Source: Eledone cirrhosa
Taxonomy: Eukaryota
Direction of reading: 5' to 3'
DNA length: 64,000 nucleotides
Assembly: GCA_964016885.1 (NCBI GenBank)
Contig: OZ024741.1
Location: forward strand, 241,180,001 to 241,244,000
Part shown: positions 29,210 to 55,192 of the stretch, one piece after another
Position numbering within the stretch: the stretch's first letter is position 1
Layout of the letters: each line of letters begins with the position of its first letter
The notes under the pieces: generated by a model
What the model saw: only the letters and a program-made list of their open reading frames with translations
The model's database searches: none
What the model was told of the DNA's origin: nothing
Made by a program: the position numbers and the translations under genes

Positions 29210-29265
29210 CTAGTACTGACCTCTGTGGGGGCCTGAGGACATGTTTTGTCTGTAATTATGTAGGG
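29210..29265 (-). CDS. PCDH: Protocadherin cytoplasmic exon 3 (ALHNYRQNMSSGPHR, then GQY* or spliced at 29221)
   Basis: Strong acceptor ctctttttcatttcAG (29266-29267), open in phase 1 as exon 2 requires. An internal donor AGAG|GTCAGT at 29221 gives a 45-nt phase 1-1 exon; otherwise the frame stops at TAG 29210-29212. Confidence 0.6.
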
Positions 29266-29297
29266 CTGAAATGAAAAAGAGAGTATCAATTGAGACA

Positions 29298-29369
29298 ATC
29301 ATCATCATCATCATCATCATAACCACCATCATCATAACCATCATCATCATCATCATCATCATAATAACT

Positions 29370-29416
<47 letters not shown>

Positions 29417-29419
29417 AAC

Positions 29420-29452
<33 letters not shown>

Positions 29453-29483
29453 AATAATAATAACCATCAACATCATCATAACT

Positions 29484-29515
<32 letters not shown>

Positions 29516-29808
29516 AACCATCATTATCATCATTATCATCATCGTCATAGCCATCATCATGACCGTCATCATCATCATAACCATCGTCATAACTATTGTC
29601 ATCATCACCATCGTCATCATCATCATAATCATCATCATCATCATAATCATTATCATCAACCTCATAATCATTATCATCATCATCATCACCAATATCATCA
29701 TCACCGATATCATCATCACCAACATCATCCTCATCATCATCATCATCATCATTATAACCATCATTATCATTATCATCATCATTATCATCAGCATCATCCT
29801 CATCATCA
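29298..29808. repeat. (ATC)n trinucleotide tract
   Basis: About 500 bp imperfect ATC/ATA/ACC array just upstream (in transcript orientation) of the exon 3 acceptor. Confidence 0.95.
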
Positions 29809-29849
29809 TACAAAAGAAAACAAACAAGAAAAGGAAAGTATTTCTCATC

Positions 29850-30420
29850 ATCAAAGCGATACTACACATCATGCCACAATAAACATGAGCACCATATGAG
29901 TAAAGCTGTTGCAATCATTGCAAATTCTAGACCTTACTGCCACTACAAATCTCTCATAGTAGATGGACATTCTTAACAGAGTTAAGACTAATAACTACTG
30001 ACCATTCACAAAGCTCAGATGAGACTCACATTGCAGTATTGGACTTGCATATAGAATTGTGCTGTTAGTTACTCACACAACACAAACAACCTATATAGCA
30101 ACTGAAGGAAGATCAGTGGACTGATTGGCATAAAGTCCACTAAGAGATACCTCCATACTCTAGCCCACACATGTGCTGTCTTGCTGTCTTCTCTCTTTGC
30201 CTTTTTTATCCCTACAACAAAGTCTCTAGCAATCAGGACTGGCTATTTTCATGCTACTTCCTCTAAAGCACTCCTGACTTATTCATCTCTTGTCCTATCA
30301 ACACCTATAATGTGCCCATCCACTCAGACCCTACACTAACCACTATGCAGAGTTCTTCCTACCTAGATGATGGCCCACTTGGAATTCCTTCTCTGCCCAT
30401 CTTTCCTTACAAGAGTCAAA
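29850..30420 (+). mobile_element. Old degenerate CR1/L2-group LINE fragment
   Basis: accattcacaaagctcagatgagactcacattgcagtattgg reads TIHKAQMRLTLQYW, similar to the YKA.IRP.LEY motif. Heavily mutated. Confidence 0.4.
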
Positions 30421-30679
30421 CTGCAACAGTTCAAGTGGTATTAATCTCCTTTGTCTTTGAGGGCCTGTGTGTGCTATGGACATTGTCCCTTCTAGATATT
30501 CGAATAAAAATACACACAGGCCACTCATAAAATCAATCTTACACTTTCAGTATTATATTTATAATGAAACACGCTGCCTCATTGTTTCAATAAAGTTTGA
30601 AAATAACCAAACATTTAACATTTGGAAGAATTTAATAAAATAATTCAGTTTTCTATTAGTAAGTTAATGTTTAGAGTGT

Positions 30680-31023
30680 AAGGGGTAAATATCACTTTCA
30701 GTCATGAATGACGATGGGGTCTGCACCTAGAAAGTGCTCTTCTGAGGCACAAGTCATGCAAGATTGTTTGCGGTAGACCAGCAGTTGCACATGCATATTA
30801 GCCTCCCTTTTCCACATCACTGATGTTGTCCAAGGCAAACACAAAGGCCGATACAGCTTAGCACCAGTGATGTTGTAACTCATTTCTACAGCTGATTAAA
30901 CTGGAGTAATATGAATCAAAGTGTCTTGCTCGAAAACACAACGCATCACCAGGTCCGATTATCAAACTCACAACCTCACAATTGCAAGTCCAATGCTCTA
31001 ACCTCTAAGCCATGTTCCTTCGT
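30680..31023 (-). mobile_element. SINE (family B-like head) inserted into a piggyBac-like MITE (30552-31152)
   Basis: tRNA-like end at 30960-31023, with tgtttag at both junctions. The flanks align with 17940-18180 and end in aaaggggTTAA. Confidence 0.55.
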
Positions 31024-31151
31024 GTTTAGTACTTAACAAAAATATCTAAAATATAATTATAATGAAAGGTTTTAATATAAAGATAAACATTTTCAAATGA
31101 GTTATATCATAAATCCATAGCAGTTTTAGATGGATTTGTATCAAAGGGGTT

Positions 31152-31229
31152 AAGGAAATTTGTGTGGAATCTATATTGACAAAAATTATACAAGGCAGTT
31201 TATGAGTTTGGATCAGTTTTCATATCATG

Positions 31230-31273
<44 letters not shown>

Positions 31274-31350
31274 CATGATATGAAAACTGATCCAAACTCA
31301 TAAACTGCCTTGTATAATTTTTGTCAATACAATTCCACACAAATTTCCTT
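31152..31350. repeat. About 200-bp near-perfect palindrome centred on (AT)n
   Basis: Arm 31152-31232 is the reverse complement of 31271-31350; the central (AT)n is self-complementary. Confidence 0.92.
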
Positions 31351-31472
31351 TGAGTTTGAGTTATTTTTCCTAAATCTTTCGTTAACTACTTTTCCCATCT
31401 TGACGTTATAGTCGCATATATGTTATAGAATACTGTTAGCTTCTTGCTAAAACAATCTCTATACCTCTCATT

Positions 31473-31504
<32 letters not shown>

Positions 31505-31952
31505 ATAATAATTGTTTCTACTTTTGGCACAAGGCCAGCAATTACCCCCAGTGCATTACTGGTGCTTTATTTTATCAACCCCGTAAAGATGCAAGGCAAA
31601 GTTAACCTCGGCGGGATTTGAACTCAGAACGTAAAGGGCCAAAACTCTATGCTAGAAAGCATGGTGTCTGATACTCTACCGATACTGCCATGTATCATCT
31701 ACCTCCTTTTCCACCATGAGAATCTTAGGTAACACCTACTACTCTCACTTAACATCACACTTCTCTCTTACTTTCCCTCTTTCACTCTCTCTCTCTCTCA
31801 CCTTGACATATCACTATTGCTATCTCATCATGTTGCTCATGCTGTTTTATACTCAACCTACCAACAACTAGCTACATCTCTCTACTCTACCATTACTCCA
31901 TTTTCCTCTTCACACTCATATTTGTGTATAAAAGTATATGGTTGTTATTTAC

Positions 31953-32124
31953 CTAACATAGCTGGTATTTCTTCATATTGGTCTTTGTCTGCCCTACTCC
32001 ACATATGTCCAGTGTCCCTATCACTGAGATAACTATGGCCCATCACCATCATCTCATCAACATCTGCTTCTCCTGCTGCACAACTAGTCGCTGTAATGGC
32101 TGGCTGGTACATCTTTGACTTGGG
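31953..32124 (-). CDS. PCDH: Protocadherin cytoplasmic exon 2 (PKSKMYQPAITATSCAAGEADVDEMMVMGHSYLSDRDTGHMWSRADKDQYEEIPAML)
   Basis: Acceptor tcaccctctcAG at 32125-32126 is open in phase 0, matching the exon 1 donor. 172 nt of unique, protein-like sequence among repeats, with SDRDTGH and YEEIP motifs resembling protocadherin tails. Donor TTAG|GTAAAT is phase 1. Confidence 0.75.
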
Positions 32125-32169
32125 CTGAGAGGGTGATAATATCAGATACATATAGTTTAGTGGGGATGG

Positions 32170-33240
32170 TATGGTGTGGTGTGGTCTTGTGTTGTTGTCT
32201 TGGTGGTACGGTGTAATGGAATTGTGGTATGGTATTGGTGATATAGTGGTATGGTGTGGTGCAGTGGTATATTGGTATTGTGTGGTGTGGAGAAGTGAAG
32301 TGTTGTGTAGTTTGGTATGGTGTGTAGTGTGATGTGGTATGGTGTAACTTAGTGTGGTGTGATGGAATTGTGGTATGGTGTTGGTGATATAGTGGTATGG
32401 TATGGTGCAGTGGTATATTGGTATTGTGTGGTGTGGTGAAGTGTTGTGTAGTTTGTTATGGTGTGTAGTGTGATGTGGTGTGGTGTAACTTAGTGTGGTG
32501 TGATTGAATTGTGGTATGGTGTTGGTGATATAGTGGTATGGTATGGTGCAGTGGTATATTGGTATTGTGTGGTGTGGTGAAGTGAAGTGTTGTGTAGTTT
32601 GGTGTGGTGTGTGGTGTGGTGTAACTTAGTGTGGTGTGATTGAATTGTGGTATGGTGTTGGTGATATAGTGGTATGGTATGGTGCAGTGGTATATTGGTA
32701 TTGTGTGGTGTGGTGAAGTGAAGTGTTGTGGAGTTTGGTTGTGGAGTGTGGCAATAGTCTGGTGGTGGTACGTCTTAAGCTTCTTCTTCATGTGTTATAT
32801 TTCTGTATGTATAACTCTAATCTACTATAGTATTATATAGTGTGATGTATATTGTATATTTGTGTAGTCTGTATGGTATTGTACTACTGGGGACATAGTA
32901 TGGTATTGTACTACTGGGGACATAGTATAGTATTGTACTACAGGGTATATAATGTGGCAATGGCAGTGTATTAAGTATAGTGACATTATAGTATAGATGT
33001 GTTGTTAATATAGTCACATTATAGTATAGATGTGTTGTTAATATGGTTCCTTTATAGTATAGATACGTAGTGAATATTGTAACATTATTGTATAGTTGTG
33101 TAGAGAATTTAGTCACATTATAGTATAGTTTTACAGTGAATATAGTTCCTTCATAGTATAGATATGTAGTGAATAGGGTAATATTATTGTGTAGTTGTGT
33201 AGTGAAAATAGTCACATTATAGTATAGTTATAAAATGTAG
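32170..33240. repeat. Degenerate tandem repeats (GTGGT-rich about 150-bp units, then about 33-bp tatagt units)
   Basis: Recurring ggtgatatagtggtatggtatggtgcagtggtatattggtattgtgtgg and tagtcacattatagtatag. Confidence 0.8.
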
Positions 33241-33774
33241 TAACTTTTACATAAGAAAAACAATAACATAAGATAGCAGTATAATATATATAGTAAAGAT
33301 AGCCACAATATAGTATGAATGTTTAATAAAGATAGTAACATCATGGTATAGTGTACAAAACACATTAACATCATAGTATAGCAGTGAAGAGAATGTGGTA
33401 ACAATATAGCATAGCAACATACATAGAATATCAAATATAGTAATGTGATAGGGTAGATGTTGTGAAGACATATATAGTTGATCGACCTCCATTGTTTCCA
33501 ACAGCAAGTGTTCCGAATGTCTGGACAATGGAATAGTCTGCATTTTAAATTTACAGGCAAGTGACTGAGCAGTTCACAGACACATGTGCCATTAACATAG
33601 TTCTCAGAGAGATTCAGTGTGACACACTGTGTGACAAGGCTGGCCTTTTTGAAACACAGGTACGCCTTATTTTTGCTAGTTGAGTGTTACACTCAAGGAC
33701 ACAACCTCCAGCTGAGAATCAATCTCATGATCATGAGACAAACACAGTAACTAGTAAGACAGATTTTTTCCAAC

Positions 33775-34040
33775 CCCTGCTTATTAGATTTTACTAATGT
33801 ATCCCTGGCAAAGTAGTAGCATTCCTGTGACAATTAATTTTCTTTATACAACAAAAAACATATGCGACAAAAAAAGTACATTACTAGAAATCGCATGTGC
33901 TATAAAATAAATAGGATGAGCTGGGGTCTCAATATGTAAACTAAACGACTAATTCTGTTTTTTTTTTAAATTAATGGAGACAACCTAGAAAAATTACTGA
34001 TTTCCTAATCCCTCCACCTATTATTAGGGACACAAGAGGA
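33775..34040. mobile_element. Partial second copy of the same MITE
   Basis: Shares gacaaaaaaagtacattactagaaatc, ggggtctcaatatgtaaactaaa and cctattatt..gggac with 11700-11987. Confidence 0.7.
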
Positions 34041-34837
34041 TATATATATATATATATATGATTTATATATATATGTGTGTATAATAATAATTGTTTCTAC
34101 TTTAGGCACAAGCCAGCAAATTACCCAGTGCATTACTGGTACTTTATTTTATCGACCCCGTAAGGATGAAAGGCAAAGTAATAATTATAAATATGATAGA
34201 TATATATTTACATATCTACACTCTACCCACTAGTATTGAGTGCTCATTCAGTTAATGTTTGAATGGGTTAAATAATACTGTATTTCAAACACGTATTCTA
34301 ATATATATATATATATTTAACCCTGGCAGCATGGTGGTAGGCAGACATAAAATGATGTTGATGATCATACATAATTATATATATATATATACACACGCGT
34401 GCACACACATATATATATGAATACATACATACACACATTTATTTATATATATATATATATATACACACATAGATATAGATAATTCATGCAGTATTGAGTA
34501 AATTGACCAAATGTTTTATATGTGTGAGAATGTGTTGCTGGCAGGGAAAATGGACATCAAATAATGATGATATGTATGCATGCATGTATGTAATGCATGC
34601 ATGCATGCATGTATCTATCCATCTATCTATCTATCTATATATCTATCTATATCAATATATAAATATATATATATATAGGATAACAAGTTATCATTATAGG
34701 TAATCCAGTTAGAGGTTGTGAGTACTCTGCATCGTGGATAGTTTTAACGTACGGCTTTGTTTGACTCAACAAGATGCTTCCATAGTTATGCAGTGAGTTT
34801 GCGGTAATTTCTATGCAGGTTATACTTGGAGTAATAA

Positions 34838-35592
34838 TAGTTAAAGAATGAAGAGTAACATGGTTGGCTGTACAATAGGGCTTTATTTAAAGTACTGACA
34901 ATTATCAAACGGCCAACTGGTCACTGGATCATAAATCTCTGAGCATTTCTTTCACCCTCTCTCCCTGAAACAGCATCAACCCCATTAAGATAGAACAATC
35001 AGCAAAACATTTACAACAAGCGTTTATCAAATGTCCCATCACCCCTAGCCCATAAATTTCATACATGTATCTACCAATTAATCACTAATTTATTGTCTTT
35101 TCTTTTATCGGACCCTCTACACGTATCTATGTACATCTCGAATCTGGTTTCACATGTTAGCACTAAACCCACCAACGAATCCTTATAAGAACACTTACTC
35201 AAAAACTACTAATATCTACTTACACGGTCTCACTTATTTATTTCTTTATATTTTCCATTTTCTCATTTCCTTATTTTTTAATGTACCCTATCTTATATTT
35301 TACTTTTTACATCTGTAACTTCTCTACCTATTTACCATACATGTTTTATTATTGATGTTATTGTTTTGATTATATGCTATTTTTCTATATAAGTCCTGCC
35401 TCAAGTGTATTACTTTCATATCTACATACTCTGATGTGTTGACCAGAGGTAAATAATGTATTGGGGATCGATTGATGCAACCTCAAGCGATTAGTGAACT
35501 CTAGACTCACCTGATCAACAAAACAATTGTCAGTACTTTAAATAAAGCCCCTTATTGTACAGCCAACCATGTTACTCTTCATTCTTTAACTA
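34838..35592 (+). mobile_element. Penelope-like element 3' fragment with inverted partial pLTR and decayed hammerhead
   Basis: About 66-bp inverted repeat (34838-34903 vs 35525-35592). Hammerhead at 35427-35535: tact-CTGATG(T)-gttgaccag..ctgatcaac-(A)AAA-caattg-TC-agta, with two core substitutions. Confidence 0.6.
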
Positions 35593-35595
35593 TAT

Positions 35596-35946
35596 ATATA
35601 TTTGAAAAAAAGGAAAAGAATGACTTCACTTGTAGTGTTAAAAAATTTTTATGATTTAATGTTATAATATAATTGTTTCTACTTTTTGGCACAAGGCCAG
35701 CAATTACCCCAGTGCATTATTGGTGCTTTATTTTGTCGACCTTGTAAGGATGAAAGGCAAAGTTAACCTTGGCGGGATTTGAACTCAGAACGTAAAGGGG
35801 CGTAACTCTATGCTGCAAAGCATAGCGTCCGACCCTCTACCGATACTGCCAATCCACCAATATAATATTATAATATTATCTACCAACTCATAATATTATA
35901 ATATTCACTACAAGTGAAGTCATTCTTTTCCTTTTTTTCAAATATA
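35596..35946. repeat. 41-bp perfect inverted repeat enclosing a SINE
   Basis: tatatttgaaaaaaaggaaaagaatgacttcacttgtagtg (35596-35636) versus its reverse complement at 35906-35946. Confidence 0.85.
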
Positions 35947-35975
35947 CCTAACTGTACTAAGGATCGCACACATTT

Positions 35976-36024
<49 letters not shown>

Positions 36025-38065
36025 GATGTGTGTGTATGTGTAATACATGTGTATATACATCATGAGGTTAACTTTGCCTTTCATCCTTACGGGGTTGATA
36101 AAATAAAGTACCAGTAATGTACTGGGTTTTGCTGGCCTTGTGCCAAAAGTAGAAACAATTATTATTGTTATCAAAATTTTGAAGTCTAATATCCTGGAAT
36201 GGTTAATGGTTATTTTTTTATTTTTATCTTGTGCTATTTCGTCTGTGATGCCCTACTATCCTGTGATCTGACTGCACCATGTCTTCTGACATAAATACAT
36301 CATATTTACCAACAGTAGATGCTAGCTATATGCTCCACATTCATTTTACATCATGATGCTTGAGTGATCTAGTCTCACTTGTACATTGCATGGTTCCTTA
36401 ACTCCAGATTTAGAAATAGGGTCACTGTTGTGATATATGGTGTGTCATGCATTTAAACCTGGCAGAGTCCATCCCTCTCACAGCCAATTTCTTCCGAAGA
36501 AAAAGAGACAGTAAGAGAGGAGAAATGAGAAAAAAAGATAGCTAGGTAGAAGTGATTCCAGTACTGGTCTGATACTGTGTTTATTGACTTTGAAAAGATG
36601 AGAGGTGAAGACGACTTTAGTGGGATTTGAACTCAGAGCACAGAGAACCAGAACAAATTGTGTAAAGCCTTACATCTCACATCCTAAAGACTCTGCCAGT
36701 TCACTGCCTACTACTTGTACATAACACACACACTTTTAATCTTGAGTCTCCCCCCTCTCTCTCTCTCTCTCACACTCTCTCTCTTTCTCTCTCTATCTCT
36801 TCCTCTCTCTCACTCTCTCCCAGCACACTTCTGTACTCCATCCACCTCACATTCATCTCAAAATTTAACATCGTCATCATCATCATGGACATCATCCTCC
36901 TTGTCATTGTTATAATCATTTTCATCATCATCATCATCATCATCGTCATCATCATCATCATCGTCATCAACATCATCATCCTCATCATATATATATCATC
37001 TCCCAGCAACATAATAACATTATCTGGCTTACTTCCATCCTTTTTGGAGGGGTCATTCTCTATTGAACCCCAAATCTCTGTCAATGTCCTTTCCCATCTA
37101 CAACTTGTTCTCCCTCTCTTCCCTGGTGTCTGTATCTTAAAGATTCCATTCTAGCTTCTGTTTATTTTTAATGTATTGTAATGGCCTATCTATTATTATT
37201 ATTTATATTTGTTCTGTGCTGTATTTCATGTTAGTTGGTCTATCTATAGATGGCTCTAGTAATGTGTTGGATTTTGTATGAGCTCCTTGCTGAAGCCTTC
37301 TTCATTTCTGGAGGTAAGACCACTGTGGGTGGTCTCCCTTGACACTTGTGTGATGTAGCCGATTCAGAGAAAGACATGAGAGATGTATTTAATTATGTCT
37401 CATATAAAATAATACAACTGGCTATCCGCAAAATACGTATAGTTAGCACCCCAAGCGTATAATTGGGATTATACTAAGGTATATCCTAATGTTTGTTGAG
37501 TGAGACGGAAGTCAGTCGGAGTATTGCTTAAAGTTTTCTCTGTTAATGTATTAAAAATTATATATATATAGTAAAATATCAGTGGATATTACAAATAATA
37601 ATTATTTGAACCCAAATATTTAGAGGATGTCTATAACTCAAAGACCAACTCCTTGCTAAGTGGAATCACTCGACGAATTCAATTGATTTTCAACCACCTT
37701 AATATTGATATATATTCTTTCTTGATAACTTTTCTTTTTCCACACTTACATAATGCAATACACTTTCAATACTACTGAACTCCAAAGCTTAATAAATATA
37801 AACATCTTGCCCACATACTAACACAGGTACACTTAGGTTGCCATTTCAAATTAACATCTTTGAGTTATTTCCCTTCCTTTTACCATGGTGTGTTCAAACT
37901 CGTAACAAGTGCCCAATGATTAGGCCACAAATTTGATAGCTCTTACAATTTGGGGAGATGGTCAAAATTGGGCTGTGAAATCTTAAGTAGCGCTTTTGTT
38001 CTGTGTATTAACATAAATAAATGTATCTGATGCTTTAACCATTCATCTGGTCTTCAACATCAATA

Positions 38066-38532
38066 CAGTACAATGAACTATACTACACTATAGTACCTAC
38101 TTACAGCTAGGTGGTCAGGACCATTGAAAGTGAAGTGCCCAAGTCACAGACACAGTACAGTGAACTATACTACACTATAGTACCTACTTACAGCTAGGTG
38201 GTCAGGACCATTGAAAGTGAAGTGCCCAAGTCACAGACACAGTACAGTGAACTATACTACACTATAGTACCTACTTACAGCTAGGTGGTCAGGACCATTG
38301 AAAGTGAAGTGCCCAAGTCACAGACACAGTACAGTGAACTATACTACACTATAGTACCTACTTACAGCTAGAGTTAAAAGTCTTTATTCAGAACATAATA
38401 CATTGAATTACACCACACTATAGAACCTGCTAACAGCTTGGTTGTCTGGGTCATTGAAAGTGAAGTGTCTTCATCATGGACACAGTACAATGAACTATAC
38501 CACACTATAGAATCTACTTACAGCTAGGTGGG
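38066..38532. repeat. 87-bp minisatellite (3.5 near-identical plus about 2 diverged units)
   Basis: Units start at 38066, 38153, 38240 and 38327. Confidence 0.9.
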
Positions 38533-40334
38533 TTGTACTGTTATTTGTGGAGTTCTGGATGAATTGTAAAGGACAATATTTTTTTTAATGTCTTTCTTGA
38601 GCCCAGAGACTTATCAGGGCAGAGATTATTCCTATGTCATAGGGCATTAACCCATAGTTACCAACCCAGCCAAAAACTGGCATTTGTTCTATGAAATAAA
38701 ACCACCCATTTTAAAGGTTTCCAATTTTATATAAGAACTTTACCTTAAGTTACTATCTTACTAATGAAATAATGAGTAGTTTTAGTAATTCCTTCGAAAT
38801 TCTTCATTTATTAATTAAAATAGAGTGTATTTCATTAGAAATGTGGTCATAAAAGAGTTAAACTACTGAGAGTAAAAACATGATACCAGTTGAAGTCAGA
38901 CTTAACCCTTTGCTGCCGGTACTCATTGCTTTCAATCTGGTGAACTGGAGGGATATGAATTGAAGTGCCTTGTTCAAGGACACAATATACTGCCTAATCC
39001 AGGGATCAAACTCATGACCTTATGTTCATAAGACTAATATTTTAATCATAATTTTTTGAACATAAGACTACTACCTTAATCATGACCCTAAGACTAATAC
39101 TTTAATGTCTTTGGGCAATAACACAGTAAATTAGTTGAACTGAAATCTGTAAGATATTGGACAAACTGAAACTTTATTAGTCAAAACAACACAAAGACAA
39201 TGTTTGATTGATACACATCTTTCTCTTATAACATCACAAAGTTATCAGACATACTGTGTTTGATAAACACAGTAAATCTGATTGATACACTTAAATCTAT
39301 TACATTTCAGAATTTCTTTGTTTAACAAACATGCTGTTTGATTGTAATACATATGTTTTAAACAGTTGAGAAGTTCCTTGTTTAATAAATGTATTGTCTG
39401 ATTGTTTACATAACTGTCTTGTATATTTGAGTAGTTCTATGTTTGATGAACATAATGTCTGATTATTGCAAATCTTCTTTATACATTTGAGTAGTACTGT
39501 GTATGACAGTGTCTGATTGTTACACACTTGTGTTAAACAGTTGGGAATTCTGTGTTTGATGAGCACAATGTCTGAATCTTACAAATCAGTAGTTCTGTGT
39601 TTGATAAACATAATATTTAATTGTTATACAGCTGTTTTATGACAAGTTCTGTTTGATAAACACTATTTTTTTAATGGAATGTTCTTGTATAAAAAGAAAA
39701 AGAATAGGAGGGAAATATGACAAGACTATATGAAAATCAGTTTAGCTTATGACTAGTGATTAAACACTGATCATAAATGTTTTAAATTATGTCATATCAT
39801 TATTTCATGTAGGTCAGTAAGATGAAGAAATACATGAAAGTCGGTGATTATGATATGCCATAATTACTCCATGCCATAATTAATCTATATTGTAGGTCTG
39901 TAAGATGATCAGATATATGATGGGATGCAATTATGATGTCATGATTAGTGCACCTGAGCACTGTAGACAATAATTTCATTATCATTATATATATATATAC
40001 TCCATGTCATAATTATTTAATGTTGTAGGTCAGTAAGATGAACTGTTATAGGATGGGATGTAGTTATGATGTGTCATAATTACTCCATGGCATATCTATT
40101 TCATATTGTAGGTCTGTATATGGTGGAAGATAAGGGGATCAATCACAGTATACAGATGTATATTGTATTTGTTTATTTTTTAAATATTTATTTTTATAAT
40201 TTAGTATAAGGAGAGTATAGCCCATAGCTTTCCTTTGTAGGGCCTCTTAGACACAGTTGGGTAATTTGAATACAGTCAATGTTCAGATTGATATTTTTGT
40301 GTGTCAGGGGTTGATAACAGAAAACAAAACCAAA

Positions 40335-40630
40335 CAAAACACAGACAGAGTGGGATTTCCAAAGGGATAGAGGTTATGAGGAGCATGGATTGGTCAGTTC
40401 TTGACATTCAGAGGTCATGGATGAAATGTGTAGAAATAAAAAAAAGAAAAAAATACTAAGAAAGCATCATTCTTAGTAATTCAGTCTGTTAACAACACAG
40501 ACAGGGTGGGATTTCCAGGGGGAAGGAAGCTGTGGGGAGGATGGATTGGGTAGTTCTTGATATTCAGAGTTCATGAATGTAATGTGTAGAAAGAAAGAAA
40601 CATCGATTCTTAGTGATTCAGTCTGTTAGT
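40335..40630. repeat. Diverged tandem duplication of about 150 bp
   Basis: aacacagacag.gtgggatttcca...atggattgg..agttcttga.attcagag.tcatg...ttcttagt.attcagtctgtta occurs twice. Confidence 0.75.
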
Positions 40631-40770
40631 GTTAAGGGTGGCAACCCATGGTGGCACAGTTGCTGCACTCTGAGTATAATCAGCTGCCGCTGTCTGTCTG
40701 TGTGTCTGCTGGAGTCGGAGATCTGTAGCCCAGGGACAGGGAATCTCTCTCTCATACAACCAATCTACCT
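40610..40770 (-). CDS. Candidate alternative or orphan terminal exon within the protocadherin intron
   Basis: GC-richer unique island after acceptor tttttttgtttttgttgtAG|aggtAG. It is open for 53 codons in phase 1 (EVDWLYEREIPCPW...NRLNH*) or 48 codons in phase 0 from the second AG. AATAAA on the minus strand at 40172-40177. Confidence 0.35.
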
Positions 40771-41249: not shown

Positions 41250-41292
<43 letters not shown>

Positions 41293-41641: not shown

Positions 41642-41702
41642 TATTTTATCTGATGAGAGTGTACCAAAGTTTTGTTACCCTTGAAATATATATAATATAA
41701 TA
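41642..41702 (+). ncRNA. Type I minimal hammerhead ribozyme motif with intact catalytic core
   Basis: Stem I tattttat/atataata, CTGATGA at 41650-41656, an 11-bp stem II with 2 mismatches (41657-41682), GAAA at 41683-41686, palindromic short stem III ATATATAT, and cleavage triplet ATA at 41692-41694. It sits in a PLE-like 3' end. Confidence 0.6.
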
Positions 41703-43447: not shown

Positions 43448-43642
43448 TAATAATTGTTTCTACTTTTGGCACAAGGCCAGCAATTATCCCAGTACATTAC
43501 TGGTACTTTATTTTATCAACCCCCGTAAAGATGAAAGGCAAAGTTAACCTCGTTGGGATTTGAACTCAGATCGTAAAGGCCGTAACTATATATAGCAAAG
43601 CATGGTGTCTGACCCTCTACTGATACTGCCAATCCACTGCCC
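43448..43642 (-). mobile_element. SINE family A, full-length copy (followed by a partial tandem copy 43653-43760)
   Basis: Reverse complement of the family A consensus; caactaataat is repeated at the junctions. Confidence 0.8.
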
Positions 43643-45059: not shown

Positions 45060-45250
45060 GGCGGTGGATTGGCAGTATTGGTAGAGTGTCGGATGCCATG
45101 CTTTGGTGCATAGAGTTACGGCCCTTGCCATTCTGAGTTCAAATCCCGCCGAGGTTAACTTTGCCTTTCATCCTTACGGGGTCGATAAAATAACGTACCA
45201 GTAATACACTGGGTTATTGCTGGCCTTGTGCCTAAAGTAGAAACAATTAT
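45060..45250 (+). mobile_element. SINE family A, full-length young copy
   Basis: ggcggtggattggcagtattggtagag...gagttcaaatcccgccgagg...gtagaaacaattat. Confidence 0.85.
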
Positions 45251-45719
45251 ATATATCATTTATTTATATTTACTTATTACCATTATCATTACTATTAAAA
45301 TCGTTATTATATTTTAAGTTTACTCATTTCTTTCACTGGTGATGATATTTAATTTCTGCAGCTCCCAAACCATGGTTCCACTGTGAGAACCGTTTGGCAC
45401 GTCCACCTGACCTTTCTCTCCTCATAATGGTGCCATCCAGTTCCACACTGTAAATGTGGTTGGGGCTCTCAAACTGGTTCCACTGTGAACAAGGTACGGT
45501 GCAGCCAACTGGTCTGTCCCTCCTCATAACAGTGCTGTAAATGTGGTTGGTGTTAGGAAGGGAATTCAGATGTAAAATTCCTGGCCAAATTTACAGTTCT
45601 GTCTGAATAAGGAATCACACTGTTAATCTAACCAGCCTTGTCTCATCACATAGATGACCTGTCTAATTCAGGCAAACGTGGAAAATGGATGTTAGATGGT
45701 GATGATGATGAATCAACTC

Positions 45720-45860
45720 AAATGACCTCAAATTGTTCATAGTTCCCAACAAAGTAGATTTTTGCAGAGTAATTATATTTGGTGAAATGCCAATTTCCTT
45801 CAAATGACATTTTAAGTTATTATTGACTGATCCTATTGTTCCTTTTAGTATTGATATCGT
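45720..45860 (-). mobile_element. Second, older R4/Dong-like 3' fragment
   Basis: ISILKGTIGSV...LKEIGISPNIITLQKSTLLGT parallels the C-terminus at 46741-46900. Confidence 0.55.
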
Positions 45861-46405
45861 TTTTTTCTTTGTGTGTGTTTTTATCTCACACCCTACCAAT
45901 TTTGACTCTACACTCTCAACTATTTTTATTATTATTATTCCCCTACATGTCGGCCCTTGTGGCTAATAAATGAAATCATTATTATTATTATTATTGTTGG
46001 TGGATTGGCAGTATCGGTAGAGGGTCGGGCGCCATGCTTTCTAGCATAGAGTTACCTCTCTTTATCATCTGAGTTCAAATCCTGCCGAGGTTAACTTTGC
46101 CTTTCATCCTTACGGGGTTGATAAAATAAAGTACCAGTAATGCACTGGGATAATTGCTGGCCTTGTGCCAAAAGTAGAAATAATAATAATAATTATTATT
46201 ATTATTATTAATGCTTTTTTAATGGGCTATCTCCACGATGGCCCTCGGACGTCTCCCCCCTATTGGGGAATTTTTCATTGTTCTTTTTTTGTTACATCCT
46301 CTGTTTTTTTTTTACATGCAAAAATGCCCATTTGTACTGTCCTGTATTGTCCTGTACTGTCCTTAATGTCTACTTTGTTTAAACCCTTGTGGTTAATAAA
46401 GAAAG

Positions 46406-46438
<33 letters not shown>

Positions 46439-46600
46439 GAGGGTCAGATGCCATGCTTTGACGCATAGAGTTACGGCCCTTGCCATTCTGAGTTCAAATC
46501 CCGCCGAGGTTAACTTTGCCTTTCATCCTTACGGGGTTGATAAAATAAAGTACCAGTAATACACTGGGTAATTGCTGGCCTTGTGCCAAACGTAGAAACA

Positions 46601-46656
<56 letters not shown>

Positions 46657-46662
46657 CATTAT

Positions 46663-47086
46663 TGTTCTTTGAGTCTCAGTCATTGATGTTAGTTAACTGG
46701 AAAGTTTGTTGAAATGAATATCAAGCCACTACCTGCAGCCTCAGATATTCAGGACGTATCGGAGGGTTCTTGCTGTTCCCAGCAAGCATGCCTTTTGAAG
46801 TGTTCCAAAAAGCGGGGCGGGGCCAATTTTCTTTAACCATCCCTGGAAACTTTTTGAGATAGTACCTAGTGCGCCTATGACAATCGGGACCACTTTGACT
46901 TCATGGCAGTTCCAAATCCTTTTTACCTCCCACTTTAAGTCCTGGTATCGGTTAATTTTCTCCCTCTCCTTCTCTTGCACTCTTGTGTCAAATGGGCAGG
47001 CCACATCCACAATCAGGCACAATCTTTTTTCCTTGTCCACAACCACCAGGTCAGGTCTATTGTGTTCCAGTTTCTTGTCCGTCTGT
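46663..47086 (-). mobile_element. R4/Dong-like non-LTR retrotransposon 3' end (restriction-like endonuclease domain)
   Basis: QTDKKLEHNRPDLVVVDKEKRLCLIVDVACPFD..EKINRYQDL..VVPIVIGALG..LQKACLLGTARTLRYVL* carries the PD..D RLE motif. The 3' end runs into a (TAA)n tract. Confidence 0.85.
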
Positions 47087-47180
47087 ATATTTTATGGAGT
47101 TTCTGTGATTTATTTAAACCTGTTGAAGGATACTTTAAAGATCCCTATCCATTGATTCAGTGTATTTTGTGAATGCAAAT

Positions 47181-47211
<31 letters not shown>

Positions 47212-47604
47212 TTCATCTATTCATTTATACCTCCACTCACCCATGCGTACACATGCACACACACATACATGCATATATACATACAGATACAAACACACAT
47301 GCATGCACATGAATACATACATACACATGTGCATGCATACATACAAACACACATACATGCACATACATGCATACATACATACACATGTGCATGCATACAT
47401 ACATACACATGTGCATACATACAAAGACACATACATGCATACATTCATAGTATAGTTATATGGAAGAGGAAAGGAGGCAATCATCAGAATGAACCATGGA
47501 ATCTACGTCTCCATTAGGCTTTTCATCACTAATGCTATCTGCTGGTAGGAACTCCTGGCAGAAATATCACTTCTTTTACTGGGGCAGGAAGCAGAATTTG
47601 AACC

Positions 47605-47938
47605 CATCATCATCATTTCATTTTACGTCCACTTTTCCCTGCTTGCAAGGGTGGGATGGGAACTGATTCTGGCTTGATTTCTACAGCTGGATGCCCTTCC
47701 GAACACCAACCTCATTTACAATGTGGACTGGGTGCCTTTTTGCCGTGGCACCTCCACGGCCACTTTGCAGTGGAATGATAGGGACCCCAGTCCCTATCAT
47801 CTCATTTCTACAGCTGAGTAAACTGGAGCAATGTGAAATAAAGTGTCTTGCTCAAGGAAACAACACATCGCCCGGTCTGAGAATTGAACTCACAACCTTT
47901 CGATAGCAAGGCCAATGCTCTAACCACTAAGCCATGTG
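47605..47938 (-). mobile_element. SINE family B, near-identical inverted copy of 19759-20095
   Basis: ORF-track peptides 19373..20005(-) and 47691..47906(+) are almost the same, reflecting DNA identity. Confidence 0.85.
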
Positions 47939-48067
47939 TATGCATATTACACACAGTCAGAACAGTTGCTGTAAATCATTCTGTCTGATTCTCTGACAGT
48001 TCCACCAATCCTCACCCCTGGCCAGGTACTATACTTATTGACACCGAAAAAAAAATGAAAGGCAAAG

Positions 48068-48643
48068 TTGACCTCGACGGGATTTATACTCTTGACCTCG
48101 ACGGGATTTATACTCTTGACCTCGACAGGATTTATACTCTTGACCTCGACGGGATTTATACTCTTGACCTTGACGGGATTTATACTCTTGACCTCGACGC
48201 GATTTATACTCTTGACCTCGACAGGATTTATACTCTTGACCTCGACAGGATTTATACTCTTGACCTCGACGGGATTTATACTCTTGACCTTGACGGGATT
48301 TATACTCTTGACCTCGACGGGATTTATACTCTTGACCTTGACGGGATTTATACTCTTGACCTTGACAGGATTTATACTCTTGACCTCGACGGGATTTATA
48401 CTCTTGACCTTGACGGGATTTATACTCTTGACCTCGACGGGATTTATACTCTTGACCTCAACGGGATTTATACTCTTGACCTTGACGGGATTTATACTCT
48501 TGACCTCGACGGGATTTATACTCTTGACCTCAACGGGATTTATACTCTTGACCTCGACGGGATTTATACTCTTGACCTTGACGGGATTTATACTCTTGAC
48601 CTCGACGGGATTTATACTCTTGACCTTGACGGGATTTATACTC
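48068..48643. repeat. 24-bp minisatellite (about 24 copies) inside a minus-strand SINE
   Basis: Unit TTGACCTCGACGGGATTTATACTC, flanked by the SINE sequences atgaaaggcaaag and ctcagggcgcagagc. Confidence 0.95.
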
Positions 48644-49385
48644 AGGGCGCAGAGCAGAGAGACAGAATAAATATTTAGTCTGCTGCTCTGTCGACTTTGT
48701 CAATTTACCCGTGTGTGTGTGTGTGTGAGAGAGAGAGATAAGCACACATATGCACACATGTAATCATCCTCATCCTCATCATTTTAAGTTTGCTTTCCAT
48801 GCAGACTGTTTTAGGAATTTTAGAGAATATTGAAGAGTACTTTTAGACCTCCATACATATCATTGATGTTTCAGTTGTGTATGTATCTGTATATATATAT
48901 ATCCTCATCGTTTAATGGCCACTTTCAATGCTAGTATGGGTTAGACAGGTTGTCCCATTTGAGGTAAGTTGGGTCATGTGACTATGTCTTGCTTATATAG
49001 AATGTTCCTGGCTAGAATTCTACAGCTAGTTGCCCTTCTTAATGTCAACCACGTTTGCAGTGTGTGCTGACTGCTTTGTGTCATGACTCATACATTACCA
49101 CTTTACAGTGTGGACTGGGTGTTATATATATAAGAGAGAGAGAGAGAGAGAGAGAGTTCAGTTTAACATGTTTATTCCAATATATGTTTCATCAGTGATC
49201 AGGTTCAAAACCATTCTCAATTACATAACATTATGTAATGATATGTCCTGACTCCATAGACCACTGGTTCCAAGTTTAAGTCACATCTTTTTCCACGAAA
49301 ATACAATGAAGACTCTGGTGTGACTCTTACAAGAGTGTATATGTCATGTAAACCTAAATAGGAGTTTCAGACTAGGAGACACAGC

Positions 49386-49441
<56 letters not shown>

Positions 49442-49442
49442 A

Positions 49443-49516
<74 letters not shown>

Positions 49517-49881
49517 TTTATGTGTGTGTGTTAAAAACAGATTGGTGATTTGAGTACTATTAGTTGAAGTTGTGCGTGAAGGGGGAGATGTAAGATTATA
49601 AATTCTGTTTATTCTTGAAGTAGAAGTGTAAGACAGTGCAGAAGAGTGGACATAGAAGGGTGAAGATGACATAAAGTAAGAGAGAGATTTTATCAATGAG
49701 GTTTACTCTTAATGTCCTCTGCAACATGAAACCACTTTGAAAAGTATAAAGCAGCCATAAGACTGGGATCATATTTAAATCTATAGGCTTTACTTTAGAT
49801 TACTGCAAATTTTCACTACAAATTTGTCTATTGGTAAAAACTCTATAAACATCTTTGTTATCATGGAACAAACTACCTTCA

Positions 49882-50125
49882 TCAGTTATTAACTGTCGGG
49901 ACACTGCATTCTTCGAAACCTCCATGCTTCCCGAAATTCGCCAATACTACATCTGATATTCCCCCTCCATACACATGCACACATGTCTGTGTATATATCT
50001 TGACTCATACACTGTTCACTTTCTTGACTTTTATACATTATTCTATGTACTATACACACACCTTTGATGAGTTGTAGTGCACCTGAGCATTGTACACAAT
50101 AATTTTCATTATCATTATTATTATT
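49882..50125 (+). mobile_element. CR1-like LINE 3' UTR fragment
   Basis: Matches 55990-56220 (gacactgcat..catgcttcccgaaatt...gttgtagtgcacctgagca). Confidence 0.8.
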
Positions 50126-50489
50126 TTTAAGGGCGGTGGATTGGCAGTATCAGTAGAGAGTCAGACGCCATGCTTTCCTTTCCAGCATAGTTACGTCCCT
50201 TTACGGACTGAGTTCAAATCCCGCCGAGGTTAACTTTGCCTTTCATCCTTTCGGGGTCGATAAAATAAAGTACCAGTAATGTACTGGGTAATTGCTGACC
50301 TTGTGCTTTTAGATATTTTCTAATATACCATTACAGGAAGTCAAAAGCTAAGAACATTGCGAGTCACTGAAAGTGATATTTCATTGAATAGACACAATGC
50401 AGTGCTAGTGATAACATATATTGTTTACACTATTGATACTGTGGTGTCTATACAGAGCTAGGCATACTGGGTTGTTCCTTCTCAATAAT

Positions 50490-51080
50490 CTTAGTTACTT
50501 GGCAATCTGACCATCTAAGTTGATTGTCCAGTACAGTAGTAACCACATGGCTATGTGACCATTCAGTTACTTGTCTAACTAATGATCTTGGTATTTGGTT
50601 ATTTTACCACTTCAGTTGCTTGTCCAGCACACTAGCTGACCCTCTCAGCCGGTTGTCTAGAACTCTAGCTATTAGGCTATCTGACCTCTTCAGTTGGTGT
50701 ATAGTTACAGCTTGTCTATCTGACCGCCTAGCTATGTAGTTGTTTGATCTTTTAGCAACTTGGCAATCTGACCACATCAGTTGGTTGTCCAGTACTCTAG
50801 CTACTTGGCATTCTGACCTACGTTGATTGTCCATTACCCTAGCTACTTGCCAATTTGACTTCAGTTGATTGCCTGTATCTTAGCTACTTGCCAATTTGAC
50901 CGTTTCAGTTGGTTGTCCAGTATCATAGCTAGCTATCACTCTGACCATCTCAGTTGGTGTGTCACAGTTGCTTGACTATTTGACCACATAGCTATTTAGT
51001 TGTCTGATCTCCCAGCTACTTGGCTATATGACTACCTCAGTTGGCTGTCCTGTCCCTTAGCTACTTGGCTATCTGACCAC
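50490..51080. repeat. Degenerate tandem repeat of about 45 bp
   Basis: Recurring tagctacttggc..tctgacc...cagttggttgtccag. Confidence 0.7.
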
Positions 51081-51686
51081 CATCATCATCAACTTCTGAA
51101 GGTTGATGATGATGATGATAATGGTGGTGAGATGATAATGCTGCTGATGATGAGAATAATGATGAAGATGGTCATGATGATAACGAGGGTAATGATGATA
51201 ATAATGGTACTTTATTTTTATCAACCCCGTAAAAGTAAAAGGTCAAGCAAACCTTGGCAGGATTTTAAATCACGATATAAAAGGTTGTAACTCTATGCTA
51301 CAAATCATGTTATCCGATGCTCTAAGGACTCTGCCAAACCACCACCCTTATAATGATTTCTGATACTAAAGGTAATGATTAATACCAGTGTTATGTCATG
51401 GTTAACATATTTACTTTATGTTTGATATGTTTGATTAGTTTTGGTCAGCTCAGATCAAGAAGACCTTGACTTCAGGTATAACCTTCTTTATTCTGTCAGC
51501 CAGGGCCTTGGGGCAGCCAGTGTGTGGGACCCCATTTGCTCATAATAGTGAGAGAGATGGAGGCAATGACAATGGAAGTTTGGTTCCTCTGTTTTCGGAC
51601 CTGGTGTATACATGTGTGTAATTTTACACTATCAACTCTTTCCCTTCTATACACACATACACACACACACATACACATACATACAT

Positions 51687-51742
<56 letters not shown>

Positions 51743-52486
51743 TACATACATATACACCAGCAGAAGAGGTAGGATGAGAGAATCTAGTTTCCAGCTGAAT
51801 ATATTACAATTATTCATTTTGTTCCTCTCAGTTTATAGAGAAGGGAAGTTAATGTCTGACAATGTTATTAAGGTCTAATATATAGATTTGACTGTGTATC
51901 CAACCCTCACATTTACCTCTACAATAAACAAACCTAATTGATTATAAGTTGATGTACTGAACAACATATACAAACCCTTCTTAATTAATTGAAATTTCTT
52001 TCTTCATTGGTGAAAGAAAATACAAACAAAAAAGAAAAAAAAGAACACAAAGCAAAAAGAGATAGTGGCAATTGTTAGCCACTTTCAAAGAGAAGGGGGG
52101 ATTATTTCAAAATATTAAGAATTAAGTTCTAATCTTTGTTAGCAGGCTTAGTGTTGATTAAGGACATTAAGCCTTATTGAACTTCGTCAGCAACTCTAAC
52201 AATTACCTCTACATTTTTCTCCAACTAAAAGATAAATTTCAATTAACTGAGAATGTTTTACACTGTTCAGTACCTTATCCTCTTAGCATATTTATCAAAA
52301 TTCAATCTATTGATTGACTTCAATTATTTCTCTCGAGCTAATTTAAATATATGTGTATATATTTATGCAAATTAATTCTAATGGATGGAGGAAATGAAAT
52401 AGGATTTAAGTGACAAACTAGACATTGTTTTGAAGAAAGTGAGTGTTTGACAACATAGACATGCATCAATGTCCATTGTTATTTAC

Positions 52487-54868
52487 CTTTGTTAATTTTG
52501 GTAAAGTTGTAACCATTGTTGATGTTTTCCATTCATTCTGTGATTCTTCTTCAGGATAAAACTGGTTTTTAGATTTCATTGATTGTGTGTTTCTATTTAA
52601 CATCTCCTCTGGGTTCCCAGCAAGGACTATTGGGTTACTTGTTTGATAAATTAGTTGTTTCATCTCTGTTCTTGATTGATATGGTTGATTTTCTGTTGCA
52701 GCATTGTTTCTCTGGTTATTGCACCTGATTGCTGTAACTGTGATGAATATAACGATAGCAATAGACAGTAGCACTGCTACAACAACAATGATGATCACTA
52801 AATTTATATCTATCATATCTTCAGACTGTACTTGAACGGCTGAGAAAGCCGTGAATGTCTCGTTACTAACAGTCAGAGTCAATGCCACAACAGTAGTTGC
52901 TGAGAGTACTGGGGTTCCACTGTCTTTCACTATAAATTGAAGGTCATATGAACCTGCATCATTTTGGTAAACAGTTCGAGAGAAAGACAGAACCCCTGTG
53001 TAAAAATTAACAGAAAACAGATGTTTTTCATTGCCTGAGATGATTTCATACCTAAGGAATGAGTTCTCCCGACTATCCCTGTCAGATGCCCGCAGAACGG
53101 TGATGTCATTCTTACTTTGGGGATAATAATGAATGTCTAAACTGAATGGGCTAACACTGGGGAAAGTGAAATAAGGAGCATTATCATTTTCATCCATGAC
53201 TTCCACAATGATGTTAGCTGTGTTATTTAGAGATTTCACTCCATTGTCTTTAACAAACACTTTAAATCTATACACATCTTGCTGCTCTCTATCTAATGAC
53301 TGTGTGGTCAATATGAAGCCATTTTTTGTTATAAACAAGGGAAGATTACCATCATCTTTTAAGGAATAGGTCAGCTCTCCTCCAGGACCCAAATCAGGGT
53401 CTGTAGCATCAATAAAACCAATAGGGAAATTTGGAGGTTTATTTTCATAGGTGAGGAATTTGTATGTCAGTTTAGTAAACTGTGGTTGTACATCGTTGAC
53501 ATCAATAACTTGGATGGAGAAATTTCTTTTTGATTTCAATGGAGGATTTCCTTGATCTTCACAGCTAATCGTGATATAATAATAATCTTCTACTTCTCTG
53601 TCCACTGAACGTTTCAGTGTTATTTTGAATTCTTTAGAACCCAAACTCAACAGTTTGAATACTTCATGTTTGAGGTCACATGTCACTTCACCATTTGGAC
53701 CCAGGTCATTATCAGTGACCATCACATAAGCAATAAAACTGCCAACTTCGATATCTTCAGGAATTGCAGTGGAATTTTCTGATATTGCTGATACAAAGTC
53801 CACACTGATGGTGGGGCTGTTGTTTTGCTGATTGATCACATTAACAAGAACCATGGCTGTGGAGCTGAGAGAGGGCTTTCCTCCATCAATAGCCTCCACA
53901 AATAATTTGTATGTTTGTTTCTGACCCGGAACAAATGTTTCCTTTAACAAAATTTCACCAGAATCTGGCTTCAAATAAAAATTCTTTTTGTCAACATTTA
54001 ATGTCTTTGGACTGAAGTGGTAAAAAATCTTTTTGTTTTCTCCAATGTCCGAATCTGTGGCTGACAATGTAATGATTGGTATATTTTTATTGTGACTACT
54101 TTTTATGGAGACATTAAATGAATTCTGATGGAAAATTGGTAAATTATCATTGACATCTATAACAGAAATTTGGACGTTTAAAATTCCAACTTTTGGTGGG
54201 GAACCACCATCTTTGGCAATAATTTGAAGTGAGTAATTCCCTTTAACTTCTCGGTCTAACTCTTCGTCAAGAAGCAGATCAATCTTAGATCTTCCATCCA
54301 CACGTTTTGTAACAGACAATGAAAATGGCTCATTTGGGTTCTTCCGAAGTTCATATTTTATCAAGGAATTTAACACACCTATATCTTTGTCTACAACATT
54401 TGGAATTGGTTTCACTGTTCTAGTTCTGTCTGATTCAAGGAAATGAAGGTTAACTTCTTTCACTGGAAACTCAGGTTGGTGGTCATTGATGTCTTCTATT
54501 ATGACTTTAATTTTTAATATCTTCATAAATGTCTTTTTCTGGTGAACAGCTACTTTGATGATTTTAGAACATTCCTTGTTATATATACATAGAACCTCAG
54601 CATCCAATCTCTGGGCAGTGAACAACCTGCCATGTTTACTGATATTAAACAGTTGGGAAGTTCCAGAGACTTTCCGCTGGAGTTGACTGAAAGATATTCG
54701 TTCATGTTCATCAATGAGAAAACCATTAAGAAGAGGGGAGTCAATTGAAATGTCCCCAATAAAGGTCCCAGGACTTCTTTCTTCCTCTATATGGTAAGTA
54801 AGGTCCACAGAAAAACTTCCATGAAGGATGAACAGAATTAGCAGTCCGACCAGTGTATTGGGGTTCAT
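52487..54868 (-). CDS. PCDH: Protocadherin, large ectodomain exon (signal peptide, EC1-EC6, TM, proximal cytoplasmic tail; 794 codons)
   Basis: ORF 52466..54919 contains the signal peptide MNPNTLVGLLILFILHGSFS, EC1 with a C-x5-C motif (LCIYNKEC), linkers DINDHQP, DVNDNLP, NQQNNSP, DVNDVQP and DENDNAP, LDRE/DxD motifs, and the TM segment INLVIIIVVVAVLLSIAIVIFITVTAI. Acceptor ttttcattccAG gives exon start 54894. Donor AAG|GTAAAT after LPKLTK at 52487 is phase 0. Confidence 0.95.
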
Positions 54869-55192
54869 GGTTCTTAAAATGGTGAGGGTTCTTCCTGGAA
54901 TGAAAAATAAAAAAATCATTTGTAAAATTCATATGAAAAATGGCAAGAACAGAGTTGGGGTAAAGAAAGCATGGAATAGGTAAGTTCATTTATAATCATC
55001 ACTGTTTAACATCTATTTTCCATGCTTGCATGTATTAGATGGATTGTCATGTATTGAGGTTCAACTGGTCAGATGAACTCATCTTGCTCGTTATGCAATT
55101 CTTTTGGTTTGGTGTCCAGAGCTGGATGCCTTTCCCAATGCCAGCCACTTTACAGTATGTACTAGGCATATTTTATCATATGTATATATATG

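What the first reader, a model, noticed from the sequence alone, without database searches (positions are those of the whole stretch)
29210..54894. Cephalopod-type protocadherin with one variable-like ectodomain exon and small cytoplasmic exons 20 kb away
Seen: the phase-0 donor at 52487 matches the phase-0 acceptor at 32124, and the phase-1 donor at 31953 matches the phase-1 acceptor at 29265, replacing the apparent read-through end VNNNGH*. The large exon also starts with its own acceptor (54894), implying an upstream non-coding exon that I could not locate. Known: vertebrate clustered Pcdh alpha/gamma genes splice variable ectodomain exons onto shared constant exons, whereas octopus protocadherins are generally described as independent tandem genes. 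Inference: these distal exons may be private to this gene or shared by upstream ectodomain exons, which would be a convergent variable/constant system.
Basis: partly seen in the sequence, partly recalled or inferred. Interest (0 to 1): 0.75.

Follow-up and report, generated by a model that had tools for sequence, protein, structure and literature searches.

The report
Octopus protocadherin with private tail exons

Summary
The gene model is right; the variable/constant idea is not supported. All four splice sites exist with matching phases, giving 869 aa. NCBI proteins of Octopus bimaculoides, O. sinensis, O. vulgaris and Argonauta hians carry the same exon 1-2-3 joints. The tail exons are private. 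Exon 2 DNA has one match in the genome. In 1.064 Mb around the window, 3 ectodomain exons alternate with 3 exon-2 copies. The upstream neighbour's orthologues end in their own tail. In the downstream arrays, 77 of 77 and 9 of 9 ectodomain exons have their own exon 2. Of 150 ectodomain exons listed, 134 lie 3' of these tail exons and cannot use them in cis. This agrees with Albertin 2022 (whole-gene duplication). No RNA run was available, so the junctions are unread in this species. The 5' non-coding exon was not located. The scan had already reported private tails for other arrays of this genome (e1-9859209, e1-10323705). Ordinary.

The parts
52487..54894 (-). Large exon: 26 nt of 5' UTR after an acceptor, ATG at 54868, predicted signal peptide, six cadherin repeats, transmembrane helix and juxtamembrane tail; phase-0 donor
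   Evidence: 95% identical to O. bimaculoides P0003 over 777 aa
32125..52486 (-). Intron of 20,362 nt (GT...AG), repeat-rich; holds an untested candidate for a short-isoform last exon at 40770
31953..32124 (-). Cytoplasmic exon 2, 172 nt, phase 0 to phase 1, ending in the family YEEIP motif; private to this gene
29266..31952 (-). Intron of 2,687 nt (GT...AG)
29210..29265 (-). Coding part of the last exon (17 residues plus the split codon and the stop)
   Evidence: 14 of 17 residues match P0001
28870..28875 (-). Candidate polyadenylation signal about 335 nt after the stop (the only AATAAA or ATTAAA in the 3 kb downstream); use not shown

Best explanation
The window holds one self-contained octopod protocadherin gene with a large ectodomain-plus-membrane exon and two small tail exons of its own, which are likely spliced together into an 869-residue receptor as in its annotated orthologues. 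Shown: the exons, their splice sites and phases; orthologous proteins with the same joints in four species; one exon 2 per ectodomain exon in all stretches examined. Inferred: transcription starts at a private promoter with a non-coding first exon further upstream (not located); the gene likely also makes a short-tail isoform through an alternative last exon, as its orthologues do in three Octopus species; the protein likely acts as a neuronal adhesion receptor. The family grows by duplication of whole genes, tail exons included, and the near-constant tails inside the dense arrays are copies that are likely kept alike by gene conversion or recent duplication, not one shared exon set.
For: Splice sites and open frame. 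Cluster of 8 NCBI/UniRef proteins, 5 with the long tail and 3 with a 795-aa short tail. Of 128 proteins held, 5 match the P0001 tail at 83% or more and all 5 have an ectodomain at least 90% identical to P0001; the next best tail is 41%. Exon 2 DNA: 1 match in G000. C2:240.78-241.844 Mb, contiguous and without N: 3 ectodomain exons and 3 exon-2 hits, alternating. The upstream neighbour (C2:241.74 Mb) has its own exon 2 at 241,722,358 and last exon at 241,697,246, matching the tails of its orthologues. The downstream neighbour's exon 2 is 50 kb from its large exon, so 20 kb is unremarkable. Arrays at 239.25-240.28 Mb: 74 of 77 listed ectodomain exons paired with a private exon 2 from the two search lists, and the other 3 did after fetching their DNA. 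Sample of the 238 Mb array: 9 of 9. In the 240 Mb array, 9 of 9 near-identical units also carry their own exon-3-like block and their own promoter-like block ending in a donor. Albertin 2022 states that cephalopods use full gene duplications, not shared final exons (PMC9068888, passages).
Against: No RNA junction was read in this species. The orthologue proteins are database gene models whose RNA support I could not inspect, and annotation pipelines may disfavour chimeric models. All exon-1 donors seen are phase 0, so cross-gene splicing would stay in frame. Not examined for exon 2: the genes at 240.40 and 240.55 Mb, most of the 238 Mb array, the 251-253 Mb and 331-334 Mb groups, C7 and C1211. 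Exon 3 of the downstream neighbour was not found in 240.76-240.80 Mb.
Confidence: 0.93

Rival explanations
1. Exons 2 and 3 are a shared constant region onto which several upstream ectodomain exons splice, as in vertebrate Pcdh-alpha and -gamma.
For: Large first coding exon plus small distant tail exons; every paralogue fetched has a compatible phase-0 donor (30 of 30); this exon 2 is single-copy as DNA.
Against: Only one other ectodomain exon lies in the 609 kb examined upstream, and it has its own tail exons. 134 of 150 listed ectodomain exons lie downstream of these exons. 77 of 77, 9 of 9 and 3 of 3 ectodomain exons have a private exon 2. No protein among 128 joins this tail to another ectodomain. 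The low copy number (2 matches) reflected divergence: a search with an array exon 2 gave 82 matches.
Confidence: 0.02
2. Genes are self-contained, but read-through transcripts occasionally splice one gene's ectodomain exon onto a downstream gene's exon 2, swapping tails in frame.
For: Same orientation throughout the C2 238-253 Mb cluster; uniform phase 0 at the exon 1 / exon 2 joint; tails in the arrays are so alike that short reads could not tell.
Against: No RNA evidence. The window gene's neighbours are about 505 kb upstream and 355 kb beyond its last exon downstream, and each has its own terminal exons or exon 2. No chimeric model for this gene or its two neighbours among the 23 cluster members listed.
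Confidence: 0.04
3. The gene is a single-coding-exon protocadherin ending at the read-through stop (52466), and the distant exons are unrelated.
For: The large ORF has its own stop six codons after the donor; no junction read here.
Against: Orthologues in four species continue into exons 2 and 3 or into a one-residue alternative end; none of the 8 cluster members ends with the read-through residues. The residues after the donor are not conserved among the 30 paralogues, near-identical array copies apart, whereas the GT is.
Confidence: 0.01

Closest known systems
O. bimaculoides XP_014775153.1 / O. sinensis XP_029645390.1 / O. vulgaris CAI9733561.1 / Argonauta hians GAB1604054.1 (automatic name 'protocadherin beta-15-like')
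   Same: One-to-one orthologues by sequence: 95% over exon 1 and 91% over exon 2 against O. bimaculoides, with the same joints. The upstream neighbour's Argonauta orthologue has the adjacent accession GAB1604053.1.
   Different: The window protein is one residue longer in exon 2 (869 against 868 aa). The 'beta-15' name is a best-hit label; cephalopod protocadherins expanded independently of vertebrate ones (PMC10084454, passage).
Coleoid protocadherin clusters (Albertin 2022 PMC9068888; Styfhals 2019 PMC6339937; Jiang 2022 PMC9795677; passages read)
   Same: Multi-exonic genes, head-to-tail on one chromosome, diversified by whole-gene duplication; a large exon for ectodomain and membrane helix.
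   Different: This gene is a widely spaced singleton 5' of the dense arrays, with 20 kb and 2.7 kb introns; array members have exon 2 about 0.2-1.5 kb after exon 1 in most cases.
Vertebrate clustered Pcdh-alpha and Pcdh-gamma (PMC7811963, passages)
   Same: Large exon coding signal peptide, six repeats, membrane helix and juxtamembrane tail, followed by small tail exons.
   Different: Vertebrate variable exons share one set of three constant exons; here each ectodomain exon has its own tail exons. The large exon here also begins with a splice acceptor, implying a separate non-coding first exon.

Membership tests
Coleoid (octopod) protocadherins | Six cadherin repeats with a protocadherin-type first repeat, one membrane helix | tested here: met
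   Cadherin_2 once plus five Cadherin stretches; hydrophobic segment after the sixth repeat seen in the translation
Coleoid (octopod) protocadherins | Ectodomain and membrane helix in one large exon; multi-exonic gene | tested here: met
Coleoid (octopod) protocadherins | Closest relatives are cephalopod protocadherins | tested here: met
   All named hits among 119 are Octopus, Argonauta or Acanthosepion proteins; the unnamed Logan/ENA rows carry no organism
Coleoid (octopod) protocadherins | Lies in a same-orientation chromosomal cluster | tested here: met
   134 of 150 listed ectodomain exons lie on the minus strand of C2 at 238.0-240.9 Mb, next to the window
Coleoid (octopod) protocadherins | Neural expression and homophilic adhesion | not testable with these tools
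   No RNA holder listed; no binding assay
Vertebrate-type variable/constant cluster (Pcdh-alpha/gamma layout) | Tandem variable exons that lack their own tail exons | tested here: not met
   77 of 77, 9 of 9 and 3 of 3 ectodomain exons have their own exon 2
Vertebrate-type variable/constant cluster (Pcdh-alpha/gamma layout) | One set of constant exons 3' of the variable array | tested here: not met
   The window's tail exons lie 5' of 134 of 150 listed ectodomain exons; only one other ectodomain exon in the 609 kb examined upstream
Vertebrate-type variable/constant cluster (Pcdh-alpha/gamma layout) | Different ectodomains joined to the same tail in transcripts or proteins | tested here: not met
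   For this tail, none among 128 database proteins; RNA junctions could not be read
Vertebrate-type variable/constant cluster (Pcdh-alpha/gamma layout) | A promoter for each ectodomain exon, chosen stochastically, with CTCF sites | tested here: inconclusive
   A promoter-like block occurs once per unit in the 240 Mb array (10 copies in 200 kb) but has no match near the window gene; CTCF sites and promoter choice not tested

The most novel reading that the evidence does not exclude
Because every ectodomain exon seen ends in phase 0 and the genes all face one way, octopus neurons may splice one gene's ectodomain exon onto a downstream gene's tail exons as a regulated event, giving tail-swapped receptors hidden beneath the one-gene-one-tail layout; for this gene that would mean the 241.74 Mb ectodomain using the 32124 acceptor, or the 52487 donor reaching tails further down the cluster.
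Probability: 0.04. Interest if true: 0.7.

Novelty: already known. Interest (0 to 1): 0.1.

Why it matters
As found, it matters little: it is a correct gene model for an orthologue already annotated in four species, plus a direct exon count (about 90 genes) that backs the published statement that cephalopods duplicate whole protocadherin genes. A shared constant region would have contradicted Albertin 2022 and shown convergence with vertebrates at the level of splicing; the evidence points the other way. One small lead remains: database models of this gene and both neighbours show a fixed ectodomain with alternative tails, the reverse of the vertebrate layout, and the short forms drop the YEEIP-bearing exon where it is present.

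Tried and rejected
(1) RNA junction test: no RNA holder listed. The three runs found come from one sample, cover introns and showed no joint at the predicted splice sites among the rows displayed; this says nothing on expression. (2) The first exon-2 search gave only 2 matches, which looked like sharing; rejected once the profile scan and a second query showed one diverged copy per gene. (3) An exon-3-like hit 3' of the 240 Mb array (239,873,603) has no acceptor and lies in a closed frame: chance. (4) A six-residue match to a neighbour's alternative tail at window 40128 has no AG before it: chance. (5) The upstream non-coding exon was sought with the N-terminal extension of O. vulgaris P0004 and with a DNA profile of the array promoter block: nothing above background in 1.064 Mb. 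(6) Alternative last exons and exon 3 of the downstream neighbour were not located. (8) Albertin 2015 is not held and Wang and Ragsdale 2017 was seen only as cited by others; both, and supplements I did not open, may describe this exon layout. Four paper searches listed no title or abstract start reporting shared constant exons in cephalopod protocadherins. No structure prediction was run: it does not bear on the question.
Full report
1. Observation. On the minus strand the window has one long non-repetitive ORF of this kind, 52466-54928, with one Cadherin_2 and five Cadherin stretches. The joined frame runs 869 residues to a stop at 29210, with introns of 20,362 and 2,687 nt. Phase agreement alone would not be convincing, since 745 YAG sites lie in this span. 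Homology is: the exon 2 peptide retrieved 1 protein cluster among 6 candidates, O. bimaculoides XP_014775153.1, at 91% identity. That protein passes from exon 1 to exon 2 to exon 3 at the predicted residues. Of its 8 cluster members, 5 (O. bimaculoides, O. sinensis, two O. vulgaris models, Argonauta hians) have this long tail and 3 (one per Octopus species) stop one residue after exon 1. None ends with the read-through residues. All 30 ectodomain loci fetched from the genome show an in-frame GT at the homologous place (by inspection), and 26 of 30 show an acceptor-like site within 90 nt before the ATG (by inspection; the other 4 are at or beyond the edge of the printed stretch).

2. Context. 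The window is G000:C2:241,180,001-241,244,000 in a 3.0 Gb genome; I call it octopod from protein similarity only. A search with the end of exon 1 listed 150 scored matches of 407 candidates; by my count 134 lie on the same strand at C2:238.0-240.9 Mb, that is 3' of the window's tail exons. A constant region must lie 3' of the exons that use it, so these 134 cannot use the window's exons in cis.

3. Are the tail exons shared with upstream exons? I fetched C2:240.78-241.844 Mb without gaps and scanned it with tblastn of 126 proteins and a local profile built from 75 exon-2-region peptides. It holds 3 ectodomain exons (241.74, 241.23, 240.85 Mb) and 3 exon-2 hits (241,722,358; 241,212,127; 240,801,811), alternating. 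The upstream neighbour's exon 2 scored weakly (E 6.5e-5) because it is divergent and has a low-complexity expansion, so I checked its orthologues: 2 clusters among 79 candidates, 8 members, all ending either in that same exon 2 plus a five-residue last exon or in the last exon alone. That last exon is at 241,697,246. The downstream neighbour's exon 2 is 50 kb from its large exon, so a 20 kb gap is not unusual here. Among 128 proteins held, 5 match the P0001 tail at 83% or more, all with ectodomains at least 90% identical to P0001; the next best is 41%. Exon 2 DNA has 1 match in the genome.

4. Is anything shared in the dense arrays? The first exon-2 search found only 2 matches, which briefly favoured sharing. 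It was a sensitivity effect: an array exon 2 gave 82 matches. Pairing the lists for 239.25-240.28 Mb, 74 of 77 ectodomain exons had an exon 2 before the next ectodomain exon; the 3 misses each showed one when their DNA was fetched and scanned. In 100 kb of the 238 Mb array the count was 9 of 9. In the 240 Mb array, 9 of 9 near-identical units also carry their own short block with an acceptor, an open phase-1 frame and a stop, which I read as exon 3, and their own block with a CCAAT box, a TGACGT site and a GT donor, which I read as the next gene's promoter and non-coding exon (both readings are inferences). The three more divergent intervals of that stretch were not resolved for exon 3. Genes not examined for exon 2: 240.40 and 240.55 Mb, most of the 238 Mb array, 251-253 Mb, 331-334 Mb, C7 and C1211.

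5. RNA. No RNA holder was listed. The three runs found are from one sample and cover introns; they agree with the exon sequences but cannot test splicing. The model therefore rests on orthologous database proteins whose RNA support I could not see.

6. How it most likely works. A private promoter and non-coding first exon (inferred; not located) splice to 54894. The large exon supplies signal peptide, six repeats, membrane helix and the first part of the tail; exons 2 and 3 add 75 residues including the family YEEIP motif. An alternative last exon likely gives a short-tail form as in three Octopus species; the best candidate by polypyrimidine tract among 7 AG-Arg-stop sites 3' of the donor is at 40770 (untested). 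Adhesion in neurons is inferred from the family (PMC9068888, PMC9795677; passages). Confidence in the private three-exon gene: 0.93.

7. Comparison with what is known. Albertin 2022 says that, unlike vertebrates, cephalopods do not splice multiple first exons to shared final exons and diversify by full gene duplication, with homogenisation by gene conversion suggested (PMC9068888, passages). Styfhals 2019 cites 168 multi-exonic genes in O. bimaculoides (PMC6339937, passages). A review notes large ectodomain-plus-membrane exons in octopus (PMC10084454, passage). The vertebrate layout is defined by variable exons spliced to one set of three constant exons (PMC7811963, passages). The window gene meets the tested features of a coleoid protocadherin and fails the tested features of a variable/constant cluster. 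Albertin 2015 was not held; no supplements were opened. Four searches listed nothing that reports shared constant exons in cephalopods, as far as titles and abstract starts show.

8. Side result. In 21 members of the 240 Mb array, mean amino-acid identity in 25-residue windows is 0.66-0.83 around the first-to-second repeat boundary, 0.86-0.93 through the rest of repeats 2 and 3, and 0.96-1.00 from repeat 4 to the tail; fourfold-site differences reach 0.52 in the variable part against 0-0.14 in the constant part. So the proteins are variable-plus-constant although the exons are not shared. I saw this before consulting the scan's notes, which report it several times already; it is not part of this finding and does not raise its score.

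9. Verdict. Observation confirmed; interpretation partly supported (private branch). Already known; interest 0.10. The boldest reading left open is regulated in-frame tail swapping between neighbouring genes (probability 0.04), which only long-read cDNA can test.

Noticed in passing
window 8099-10962 (-): Two ORFs (547 and 335 aa) of a hAT-type DNA transposon remnant; the longer hits Dimer_Tnp_hAT (E 4e-6) and DUF4371 below cut-off, the shorter has no Pfam hit.
   Followed up: partly
window 341-4651, 5532-7195, 22700-28750, 47947-48699, 63123-63834: Long tandem repeats that give stop-free frames of up to 1645 codons; low-complexity DNA, no sign of genes.
   Followed up: no
window 40770 (-): Acceptor with 15-16 of 20 pyrimidines followed by an arginine codon and a stop: candidate last exon for the 795-aa isoform annotated in three Octopus species. 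Use not shown.
   Followed up: partly
window 32218-32642: Contigs of runs X2 and X3 skip 423 bases of a repeat 94 nt before the exon 2 acceptor, while an X1 contig follows the window to 32286; likely a second allele.
   Followed up: no
P0127-P0140 and P0001-P0008 (orthologues of the window gene and both neighbours): All three genes have database isoforms with the same ectodomain and different tails (exon 2 skipped, or alternative last exons), conserved across three Octopus species: a fixed head with variable tails.
   Followed up: partly
G000:C2:241,722,358 (L100): Exon 2 of the upstream neighbour carries an in-frame glycine/valine-rich expansion that is much shorter in the Octopus orthologues, and it lacks the YEEIP motif.
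   Followed up: partly
G000:C2:239.95-240.23 Mb: Array members vary mainly from the end of repeat 1 through repeat 3 and are almost identical elsewhere, synonymous sites included; already noted by other findings of this scan.
   Followed up: partly
G000:C2:239.955-240.05 Mb: A block of about 500 bp with CCAAT box, TGACGT site and a GTAAG donor occurs once per array unit (10 copies in 200 kb), 2.5-6 kb before the next ectodomain exon; likely promoter plus non-coding first exon.
   Followed up: partly
G000:C2:239,912,507; 239,930,434; 239,238,912: Broken or orphan pieces in the cluster: an exon 2 with an internal stop, a frameshifted extra exon-2-like piece, and an isolated 67-codon fragment of an exon 1 end.
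   Followed up: no
window 31953-31975 (-) and paralogues: Exon 2 ends in a YEE(I/L)P-type motif in most paralogues although the rest diverges. That YEEI is a Src SH2 binding motif is recalled and also noted in e1-9809617; not tested here.
   Followed up: no
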